Shown here piece by piece: positions 25,752 to 27,065 of a DNA stretch of 64,000 bases (position 1 is its first letter; each line of letters opens with the position of its first letter). The notes beneath the pieces are model-generated. The model saw nothing but the letters and a program-made list of their open reading frames with translations. It was not told the origin of the DNA and searched no databases. A program made the translations under genes and the position numbers. The stretch is from Paraspadella gotoi. Its lineage: Eukaryota; Animalia; Chaetognatha. The stretch lies in assembly GCA_051294375.1 (NCBI GenBank), contig CM119268.1, positions 9,731,216 through 9,795,215 on the forward strand, written 5' to 3'.

Positions 25752-25829
25752 TCAGAGGAGAGAACAGGTTTTCTTCTTTTTCGGTTTTGGCTTTGGACTT
25801 AGCACAGCCCGGATAGCCTCGTCAAATAC
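25752..25829 (-). CDS. Rac1: Rac1 alternative terminal coding exon 5b ([25 protein letters not shown])
   Basis: Acceptor TTTTTCAG, phase 0, CAAX CSLL, minus-strand AATAAA at 25125-25130. Confidence 0.92.
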   Translation of the reverse strand, partial: VFDEAIRAVLSPKPKPKKKKTCSLL

Positions 25830-27065
25830 CTGAAAAAATATATCAAAATAATTAACACTAAGTACTTAACTTGGTGAAGCAAAATTAAAAATAATGAAAT
25901 AATTAATCCCATAGATTCCGTCACCGTACATCAACAAACTATAACTATTAACTAAATTGTAACTAGGAACCAATCACCGATACTAGCGTTAGCAATGTAA
26001 AAAATGCTCACATTATAACACTTTACACTTCTTTCGACGTTTTTTAACTTCAGTCTTAGGATTTAGAACGGCCCGAATGGCCTCGTCAAAGACCTACAAC
26101 ATAGTTAAACAGCTCTCCAATTTGGGCGTGTATTAAAAAAATTTATGAAACAAACGATTTCATGGTCATGACTAATTTTCCGAATACAAGACATTAACTA
26201 CGTTTGTATTTTAGAAATATTTTTAACTATACTCTTCATGAATCCACAAGATAAATGATTTAAACCTGTTTGAGTCCCTTCTGCGTCAACGCTGAGCATT
26301 CCACGTACTTCACGGCCGTTATTTCTTTCATCATCGCAAGCCCTGCGTTTGAGAATAAAAAGGGCATTTTCAATTCAATGGTAACCCATAAATTTAAATT
26401 TAATTCTTAACAATACCTTGAGGATAGGTTATGGGCGCAAGCTTCTTCTCTTTAAGCTTTTCTATTGTTTCTTTATCTTCTCTCAAATCCAGTTTAGTAC
26501 CAACAAGAATTATTGGGGTGTTCGGGCAGTGATGTGAGACCTCAGGGAACCATTTTGCTCGAACGTTTTCGAACGAAGCCGGAGAAACCAGACTAAAACA
26601 TATGAGGAAAACGTCCGTCTGCGAAGAAAATAAAAATTATAATTCTCTCATTTTAAATATTAAAATACATTTAAAACAAATCATTATGAAAAGCGTTTAT
26701 GATAAAGCCTTAAAACCACTTGGTCCCTTCTGCATAGCTTTTTCGGATTACCTGAGGGTAGGAGAGGGGTCTCAATCTGTCGTAATCTTCTTGACCCGCT
26801 GTATCCCAAAGACCCAAGTTAATGGGTTTTCCGTCAACCATCACATTCGCCGAATAATTGTCGAAGACGGTTGGAATGTATTCTCCTGCGGACGAAAATT
26901 TAAGAATTCGTCAGTTGGGTCTCCGAAGCGGCGCCATGCATTAAAGTCATGACGCCGCGCTATCGTCTCGGTCTCACCTGGGAACGCGTTGGTCGTGTAA
27001 CTTATGAGTAGACAAGTTTTACCAACGGCGCCGTCGCCAACGACGACGCACTTGATAGCCTGCAT
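25752..27065 (-). CDS. Rac1: Rac1 small GTPase with two alternative C-terminal exons
   Basis: Exons 26978-27065, 26752-26885, 26417-26618 and 26266-26342, then 26013-26093 (5a) or 25752-25829 (5b). Translation [97 protein letters not shown]...[22 protein letters not shown]. Confidence 0.98.
26013..26093 (-). CDS. Rac1: Rac1 alternative terminal coding exon 5a ([26 protein letters not shown])
   Basis: Acceptor TAG, phase 0, intact frame, CAAX CKVL, donor GTGAGC 1 nt after the stop. Confidence 0.9.
   Translation of the reverse strand, partial: VFDEAIRAVLNPKTEVKKRRKKCKVL

What the first reader, a model, noticed from the sequence alone, without database searches (positions are those of the whole stretch)
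25752..26093. Rac1 with tandem-duplicated C-terminal exons in a KRAS-4A/4B-like layout
Seen: two paralogous phase-0 exons follow exon 4. Both begin [10 protein letters not shown] with several synonymous differences (GTC/GTA, GCC/GCT, ATT/ATC, GTT/GTG), consistent with selection on both. Their hypervariable regions differ: [16 protein letters not shown] versus [16 protein letters not shown] donor (GTGAGC, 26011) lies 1 nt after the 5a stop and there is no AATAAA between the exons, so 5a looks like a cassette spliced onto 5b as 3' UTR, with the stop close enough to the last junction to escape NMD. Known: KRAS 4A/4B and vertebrate CDC42 switch membrane-targeting tails by alternative last exons, whereas the known Rac1 variant (Rac1b) is an internal insert and Rac tail diversity normally comes from paralogues. 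Inference: one gene makes two geranylgeranylated Rac isoforms with different polybasic/NLS-like tails, a convergent localisation switch.
Basis: partly seen in the sequence, partly recalled or inferred. Interest (0 to 1): 0.85.

Follow-up and report, generated by a model that had tools for sequence, protein, structure and literature searches.

The report
KRAS-style tail switch in Rac gene
In an invertebrate, likely an arrow worm, one Rac signalling gene carries two copies of its last coding exon, and likely transcript-derived contigs show both splice forms, so the gene is predicted to make two Rac proteins with different membrane-anchoring tails, the layout of human KRAS4A/4B, which we did not find in print for a Rac gene; that the two tails behave differently in cells is untested.

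Summary
The Rac gene (minus strand, ATG 27065) has four shared exons and two homologous phase-0 tail exons, 5a and 5b. Contigs of run X1 cover no intron. They show exon4>5a>5b in one 139-nt contig and exon4>5b in another, at similar depth (154.5 and 115.7). So 5a is a cassette with its own stop and 5b becomes 3' UTR when 5a is included, as in KRAS4A (PMC5945503). The shared ten codons have 5 synonymous and 0 replacement differences. 5b is the conserved tail in relatives; 5a-like tails occur in two unnamed proteins whose locus I could not see. The 'localisation switch' is weaker than claimed: both tails are net +6, end in CaaL, match an NLS consensus and lack a palmitoylation cysteine, unlike KRAS4A or brain CDC42. 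Duplicated Rac 3' exons also appear in database annotations of other invertebrates. Support is one run of one study. The scan's notes held no earlier case of this. Verdict: real, a new variant of a known kind.

The parts
26978..27065 (-). Rac coding exon 1 (ATG at 27065; phase-1 intron follows); an X1 contig extends the 5' part to 27476
   Evidence: X1 junction skipping 92 nt
26752..26885 (-). Rac exon 2
   Evidence: X1 junction skipping 133 nt
26417..26618 (-). Rac exon 3
   Evidence: X1 junction skipping 74 nt
26266..26342 (-). Rac exon 4, last shared exon; its donor is the weakest of the five by consensus match (5 of 9)
   Evidence: joined to both 5a and 5b in X1
26012..26093 (-). Exon 5a: 82-nt cassette exon, duplicate of 5b, with its own stop (ends 26013) and tail [16 protein letters not shown]; its acceptor has the fewest pyrimidines of the five (10 of 17)
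   Evidence: X1 record 4 (139 nt, 0 mismatches) spans exon4-5a-5b
26006..26011 (-). 5a donor GTGAGC, 1 nt after the stop
   Evidence: X1 junction skipping 182 nt, GT..AG
25752..25829 (-). Exon 5b coding part, tail [15 protein letters not shown]; coding when 5a is skipped, 3' UTR when 5a is included
   Evidence: X1 junction skipping 436 nt; same tail in L001, one change in P0062
24900..25751 (-). Shared 3' UTR (end not mapped; poly(A)-like hexamers at 25156-25045)
   Evidence: one X1 contig covers it continuously

Best explanation
A Rac gene duplicated its last coding exon in tandem, and likely transcript-derived contigs show the upstream copy (5a) either included or skipped, so one gene is predicted to make two geranylgeranylated Rac proteins with one G-domain and two tails that likely differ modestly in membrane versus nuclear distribution and in tail-binding partners. 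Shown: the exon structure; all three junctions; one shared 3' UTR; purifying selection on the shared ten codons. How it works: including 5a ends translation at its own stop, 1 nt before the last junction, so the mRNA is predicted to escape junction-dependent NMD and 5b becomes UTR; skipping 5a gives the conserved 5b tail. Inferred: 5b is the ancestral tail (proline-spaced lysines, four in a row, and a Thr next to the prenyl-cysteine that could be a phosphorylation site). 5a is the derived tail and puts six contiguous K/R directly before the cysteine, like vertebrate Rac1 (VKKRKRK-C in P0043), the arrangement tied to plasma-membrane and nuclear targeting in human Rac1. Because the 3' UTR is shared, any sorting would come from the protein tails and not from mRNA localisation as in CDC42.
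For:: X1 has exon4>5a and 5a>5b (depth 154.5, one 139-nt contig, 0 mismatches) and exon4>5b (115.7), all at GT..AG ends. Their sum (270.2) matches the depth on 5b (221.2 + 51.5 = 272.7); bins lying wholly in introns have zero cover; no loose end is listed at the end of 5a; 5 synonymous and 0 replacement differences in ten codons; both exons keep a CaaL and net +6. The 5b tail is identical in L001 although 83 of 170 degenerate codons differ upstream, has one change in P0062, and 5b-like joins occur in X2 and X3. P0022 and P0023 are identical to the window protein over residues 1-167 but end NPIVKE(K/R-rich)-CKFL, a 5a-like tail. PMC6316090 passages: the polybasic region sets Rac1 localisation, and swapping it changes nuclear accumulation. 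PMC10883850 abstract: short C-termini set CDC42 isoform localisation.
Against: One run of one study, RNA only by guess, kept as contigs; the junction flanks are 27-30 nt, just under the tool's 31-nt bar for bridging, and contig depth is a poor measure of isoform ratio. No protein, tissue or localisation data. The tails are equal in net charge and prenyl type, both match the NLS consensus and neither is palmitoylable, so they may be interchangeable. P0022/P0023 are weak support: among 165 distinct tails P0023 only ties for the best score to 5a with two unrelated tails and P0022 ties for fifth; their loci were not seen, and chaetognaths have thousands of duplicated genes (PMC12460157 passages), so they could be paralogues. 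Only 1 to 3 of the 5 synonymous changes can be placed on the 5a branch with L001 as outgroup.
Confidence: 0.62

Rival explanations
1. Both isoforms are made but are functionally equivalent: 5a is a tolerated duplicate, kept intact only because it is often included and so must encode a working Rac tail.
For: Same net charge (+6), same CaaL class, no palmitoyl cysteine, NLS consensus in both, shared 3' UTR. If P0022/P0023 are 5a orthologues, the 5a tail has drifted strongly while 5b is frozen. Unchecked notes describe several arrays of duplicated terminal exons in this genome, so such duplications may arise easily.
Against: The flanking introns have lost similarity, so the copy has been kept for a long time. 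The tails differ in ways known to matter for Rac1 (contiguous K/R run of 6 versus 4, arginines, prolines, Thr next to the cysteine). 5a and P0022/P0023 share NP, an acidic residue and K-C-K-x-L.
Confidence: 0.3
2. 5a is a regulatory (poison or mRNA-tuning) exon whose inclusion lowers Rac output instead of making a second protein.
For: It brings a stop upstream of a splice junction and adds 78 nt of former coding sequence to the 3' UTR.
Against: The stop lies 1 nt from the last junction, far inside the roughly 50-nt limit for junction-dependent NMD (rule from established knowledge). The inclusion contig is as deep as the skip contig. 5a keeps a full helix-5, polybasic and CaaL code under purifying selection.
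Confidence: 0.05
3. The tandem pair is an assembly artefact (two alleles or paralogue ends placed side by side) or a dead exon copy.
For: The window's whole assembly was not available.
Against: A contig from a separate data set with its own variants (26535, 27071, 27131, 25111) joins exon 4, 5a and 5b in genomic order at canonical splice sites.
Confidence: 0.03

Closest known systems
Vertebrate KRAS4A/4B (PMC5945503 passages; PMC9882654 section 13 and passages)
   Same: The upstream alternative exon is a cassette with its own stop; the downstream exon is in both mRNAs and untranslated when the cassette is included; both exons code the last helix, hypervariable region and CaaX.
   Different: Rho-family Rac in an invertebrate, so an independent origin. 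KRAS 4A is proposed to come from NRAS exon 4 by shuffling; here a local duplicate is the simplest reading. KRAS4A is palmitoylated and 4B polybasic, whereas both tails here are polybasic with no extra cysteine. KRAS 4A/4B is over 450 My old; the age here is unknown.
Vertebrate CDC42 E6/E7 (PMC6411841 passages; PMC10883850 abstract)
   Same: Rho-family gene with two homologous C-terminal exons starting just before the last helix; isoforms differ only in the tail.
   Different: CDC42 uses alternative last exons with separate 3' UTRs and a prenyl versus prenyl+palmitoyl switch. Here the 3' UTR is shared and no lipid switch is predicted.
Rac1b (PMC9714508 passages)
   Same: Alternative splicing of a Rac gene by a cassette exon.
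   Different: Rac1b is an internal insert (211 versus 192 aa) and leaves the tail unchanged.
Database-annotated invertebrate Rac genes with duplicated 3' exons (Lineus longissimus X1/X2, P0136/P0036; Hydractinia X1/X2; fused models in barnacle P0035, Oppia P0011, Dreissena P0005, Paralvinella P0002, Mytilus P0012)
   Same: One N-terminal part followed by two alternative or tandem Rac 3' parts with different tails.
   Different: The duplicated unit is larger (from about residue 76, 97 or 142) and changes the G-domain too; here only helix 5 and the tail are duplicated. I saw only protein sequences and names, not their genomic layout or splicing.
Tandem exon duplication-derived substitutions, the general class (PMC8373072 passages)
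   Same: Homologous exon swap at the C-terminus (77 of 236 human cases are C-terminal).
   Different: Most C-terminal cases are described as alternative poly(A) use; this one is a stop-bearing cassette.

Membership tests
Rac subfamily of Rho GTPases | Ras-family G-domain closest to Rac1 | tested here: met
   Exon 3 and P0022 (identical to the window protein over 1-167) retrieve Rac1-named proteins at about 85-96%; Pfam Ras on P0022
Rac subfamily of Rho GTPases | Polybasic region followed by a CaaL prenylation motif | tested here: met
   Both tails net +6; CKVL and CSLL; prenylation itself is predicted
KRAS4A/4B-type tail switch | Upstream exon is a stop-bearing cassette; downstream exon present in both mRNAs | tested here: met
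   X1 contigs exon4>5a>5b and exon4>5b; KRAS layout from PMC5945503
KRAS4A/4B-type tail switch | Both exons homologous and coding a complete hypervariable region with CaaX | tested here: met
   55 nt at 76% identity; translations
KRAS4A/4B-type tail switch | Different second targeting signal (palmitoylation versus polybasic) | tested here: not met
   No cysteine other than the CaaX one in either tail; position 178 is N or S; equal net charge
KRAS4A/4B-type tail switch | Both exons conserved across related species | tested here: inconclusive
   5b conserved in L001, P0062, X2, X3; 5a-like tails only in P0022/P0023, loci unseen
KRAS4A/4B-type tail switch | Isoforms differ in localisation or function | not testable with these tools
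   Needs cell experiments
CDC42-type alternative last exons | Each last exon has its own 3' UTR and poly(A) site | tested here: not met
   5a splices on to 5b; no cover or loose end in the intervening intron; no AATAAA/ATTAAA there
CDC42-type alternative last exons | Prenyl versus prenyl+palmitoyl switch | tested here: not met
   CKVL and CSLL, no second cysteine
Rac1b-type variant | Internal in-frame insert with unchanged tail | tested here: not met
   The isoforms differ only after residue 177
Poison (NMD) cassette exon | Stop more than about 50 nt upstream of the last junction (rule from established knowledge) | tested here: not met
   Stop ends 1 nt before the junction

The most novel reading that the evidence does not exclude
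This lineage independently evolved the KRAS4A/4B architecture on Rac and uses regulated inclusion of 5a to switch between an ancestral invertebrate tail and a tail that has converged on the vertebrate Rac1 polybasic/NLS motif. One gene would then supply the tail diversity that vertebrates get from Rac1/2/3 paralogues. With the Lineus, hydrozoan, barnacle, mite and mollusc annotations, this would mean that tail switching by exon duplication is a recurrent, unrecognised route of Rac evolution in invertebrates.
Probability: 0.35. Interest if true: 0.7.

Novelty: new variant of a known kind. Interest (0 to 1): 0.5.

Why it matters
A survey of all 167 human RAS-superfamily genes found only KRAS and CDC42 switching membrane-targeting tails by alternative 3' exons (PMC9882654 section 13). 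A Rac gene with the same stop-bearing cassette is an independent third case. It is a natural experiment in which the G-domain, promoter and 3' UTR are the same and only about 13 tail residues differ, with no change of lipid, so it isolates what the arrangement of basic residues alone does to Rac. It also points to overlooked Rac 3' exon duplications in other invertebrate genomes. The ceiling is moderate: the class is well known, and no functional difference is shown.

Tried and rejected
No whole genome is held for this window, so Rac paralogues in the same assembly were not counted. Run search: no RNA holder is on record; X1 is RNA by guess only, and X2 and X3 held next to none of the words. 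In X2 and X3 nothing was laid on 5a at 85% or 80% likeness; contigs drop variants and a diverged tail would not lay, so this is not used against 5a. The one metagenome DNA scan gave 1 locus, L001, a spliced exon4>5b form; the source contigs of P0022/P0023 were not reached. The ABCC10 neighbour gave no close named relative (best about 40%), and a quick tree of 30 rows (29 chosen from the 120 listed hits; the careful search did not finish) left it on a long branch with no supported group, so the lineage is not established here. The chaetognath spliced leaders in PMC2481426 Table 3 were compared only by eye with the 5' end of L001, without a match; this is uninformative. No Rac1, Rac2 or Cdc42 string in 3 supplementary files of PMC12460157 and no 'rac' in its main text. 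No convincing RNA pairing around 5a: the inverted repeats are short and AT-rich. The 45-nt identity in the 3' half of 5b between the window and L001 looked strong (class-matched p 7e-4) but is borderline once the place is not chosen beforehand (p 0.018 and 0.056); kept as a lead only. Hydra X1/X2 differ at 2 tail residues but come from records with different longest contigs, so they were not counted as isoforms. A Rho-family evolution paper recalled from memory was not held and was not read. Literature searches for a Rac tail switch listed nothing on it; subscription journals and bioRxiv supplements are not covered.

Full report
Observation. The minus strand holds a six-exon Rac gene: 27065-26978, 26885-26752, 26618-26417, 26342-26266, 5a 26093-26012 and 5b from 25829. 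All introns are GT..AG, and both tail exons are in phase 0 after ...KGLKQ. The two joins give 193 aa ending [16 protein letters not shown] and 192 aa ending [15 protein letters not shown]. The 5a stop ends at 26013, one base before a GTGAGC donor, and no AATAAA or ATTAAA lies between the exons. The exon pair is the only long repeat nearby (55 nt, 76%). The first ten codons differ at 5 synonymous and 0 replacement positions (8.3 and 21.7 sites; p about 4e-4); over 13 codons the counts are 6 and 1.

Splicing. One run, X1, holds 0.81 of the sampled words of 19000-28000; it is RNA by guess only. Laid on the gene it behaves as spliced RNA: bins wholly inside introns have zero depth, and all three shared introns are skipped at GT..AG ends. 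A 139-nt contig carries 30 nt of exon 4, all 82 nt of 5a without a mismatch and 27 nt of 5b (depth 154.5). Another contig joins exon 4 to 5b (115.7). Their sum, 270.2, matches the two 60-nt contigs on 5b (221.2 + 51.5). No loose end is listed at the end of 5a, so 5a is a cassette and not a last exon. Limits: one run and one study; flanks of 27-30 nt, under the tool's 31-nt bar; contig depth gives only a rough ratio. X1 carries its own variants, so it is not a copy of the window's sequence.

Relatives. L001, the single hit of the metagenome scan, is a spliced exon4>5b sequence. Its protein differs from the window's 5b form at 1 of 192 residues and has an identical tail, although 83 of 170 degenerate codons differ in codons 1-177. 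P0062 has the 5b tail with one change, and contigs of X2 and X3 join exon 4 to a 5b-like exon. So 5b is the conserved tail, and it resembles tails of molluscs and arthropods. P0022 and P0023 are identical to the window protein over residues 1-167 but end RSVLNPIVKE(K/R)5CKFL, sharing NP, an acidic residue and K-C-K-x-L with 5a. They are the best candidates for 5a orthologues, but alignment scores do not single them out (P0023 ties for first and P0022 for fifth among 165 distinct tails) and their loci were not seen. With L001 as outgroup, four wobble sites group 5a with the window's own 5b, two group 5a with L001 and one groups 5b with L001. That weakly suggests a duplication after the split from the L001 lineage; base composition could also explain it.

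Lineage. The neighbouring ABCC10 is about 40% identical to its best named hits and sits on an unplaced long branch. The long branch and the 25-nt gap between the upstream gene's contig and the Rac contig fit a lineage with operons (PMC12460157 passages), but I did not confirm it.

Mechanism. Shown: inclusion or skipping of 5a swaps the last 25-26 residues, with one shared 3' UTR. 5a has the least pyrimidine-rich acceptor (10 of 17) and exon 4 the weakest donor (5 of 9), as is common around cassette exons; the differences are small. Predicted from established knowledge: a stop 1 nt from the last junction escapes junction-dependent NMD, and both CaaL ends are geranylgeranylated. Inferred: the tails tune targeting. 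5a has six contiguous K/R right before the cysteine, nearly the vertebrate Rac1 motif (P0043), and the Rac1 polybasic region governs membrane and nuclear distribution (PMC6316090 passages). 5b has proline-spaced lysines and a Thr beside the cysteine, kept in L001 and P0062, a possible phosphorylation site (inference). Against a strong switch: both tails are net +6, both match K-[KR]-x-[KR] (consensus recalled), and neither has the palmitoylated Cys178 of human Rac1. I put real alternative splicing at about 0.93, two stable proteins at about 0.8, and a selected functional difference at about 0.6.

Comparison. The mRNA layout is that of KRAS: exon 4A carries a stop and exon 4B is in both transcripts (PMC5945503 passages). 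It differs from CDC42, which has separate 3' UTRs and a palmitoyl switch (PMC6411841 passages), and from Rac1b, an internal insert (PMC9714508 passages). In humans only KRAS and CDC42 of 167 superfamily genes switch targeting tails (PMC9882654 section 13). It works like KRAS4A/4B at the RNA level but fails the lipid-switch test, so it is not filed as an equivalent. The general class of C-terminal tandem exon substitutions is well known (PMC8373072 passages). Among the first 204 proteins fetched, 9 hold two VFDEAIR-like motifs; some are likely fused tandem genes or gene-caller errors, but Lineus X1/X2 share 97 residues and then differ at 20, which reads as alternative duplicated 3' exons. Those duplications are larger than this one, and I saw no genomic layout for them.

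Novelty and verdict. Six searches of open full texts listed no paper on a Rac tail switch; PMC7600811, a review of Rho genes in early-branching animals, has no passage on splicing. Subscription journals were not searched. Papers were seen as passages, one section (PMC9882654), an abstract (PMC10883850) or supplement searches (PMC12460157), none in full. The feature is real and RNA-supported, a new variant of a known kind with an unproven and probably subtle function. Interest 0.5; 0.7 if regulated, conserved and functionally distinct.

Noticed in passing
window 19701-24260 (+) and 24260-25750: An intronless ABCC10/MRP7-like ORF (1519 codons stop to stop) converges on Rac. A 5058-nt X1 contig ends in Rac exon 5b and by its length would run back into ABCC10, so the two 3' UTRs likely overlap or abut in the 1.49-kb gap; an unstranded contig does not show one transcript.
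   Followed up: partly
window 27476-27918 (-): The last exon of an upstream same-strand gene is covered by an X1 contig to 27501 and the Rac contig starts at 27476, a 25-nt gap: operon-like spacing; trans-splicing not tested.
   Followed up: no
window 25750-25794 (-) versus L001:637-681: The 3' half of exon 5b plus the stop is identical over 45 nt, while about half the degenerate codons differ elsewhere; it is purine-rich and could be a splicing enhancer or dual-use element. Borderline after correction (p 0.018 and 0.056).
   Followed up: partly
window 26266-27065 (-): Introns fall after coding bases 88, 222, 424 and 501; none matches the human RAC1 positions as I recall them (35, 107, 225, 288, 448), which suggests full intron turnover. 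The intron at 501 is what makes a tail-only exon possible.
   Followed up: no
P0036/P0136, P0162/P0343, P0035, P0011, P0005, P0002, P0012, P0006: Alternative or fused tandem Rac 3' halves in nemertean, hydrozoan, barnacle, mite, bivalve, annelid and sponge annotations; worth a survey of their own.
   Followed up: partly
X1 records 6 and 7, laid at window 26270-26317: Two different Cdc42-like contigs (their loose ends read as ...NVFDEAILAA on the other strand), possibly two Cdc42 paralogues.
   Followed up: no
window 27950-28600: A repeated element matched by hundreds of X1 contigs at very high summed depth.
   Followed up: no
window 5720-6238 (+), 17097-17684 (+), 44919-45614 (-), 53104-53523 (+): Pfam hits: GGACT, RGS, MFS_1 and IP3/ryanodine receptor; 13 of the 17 window ORFs scanned had no family.
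   Followed up: no
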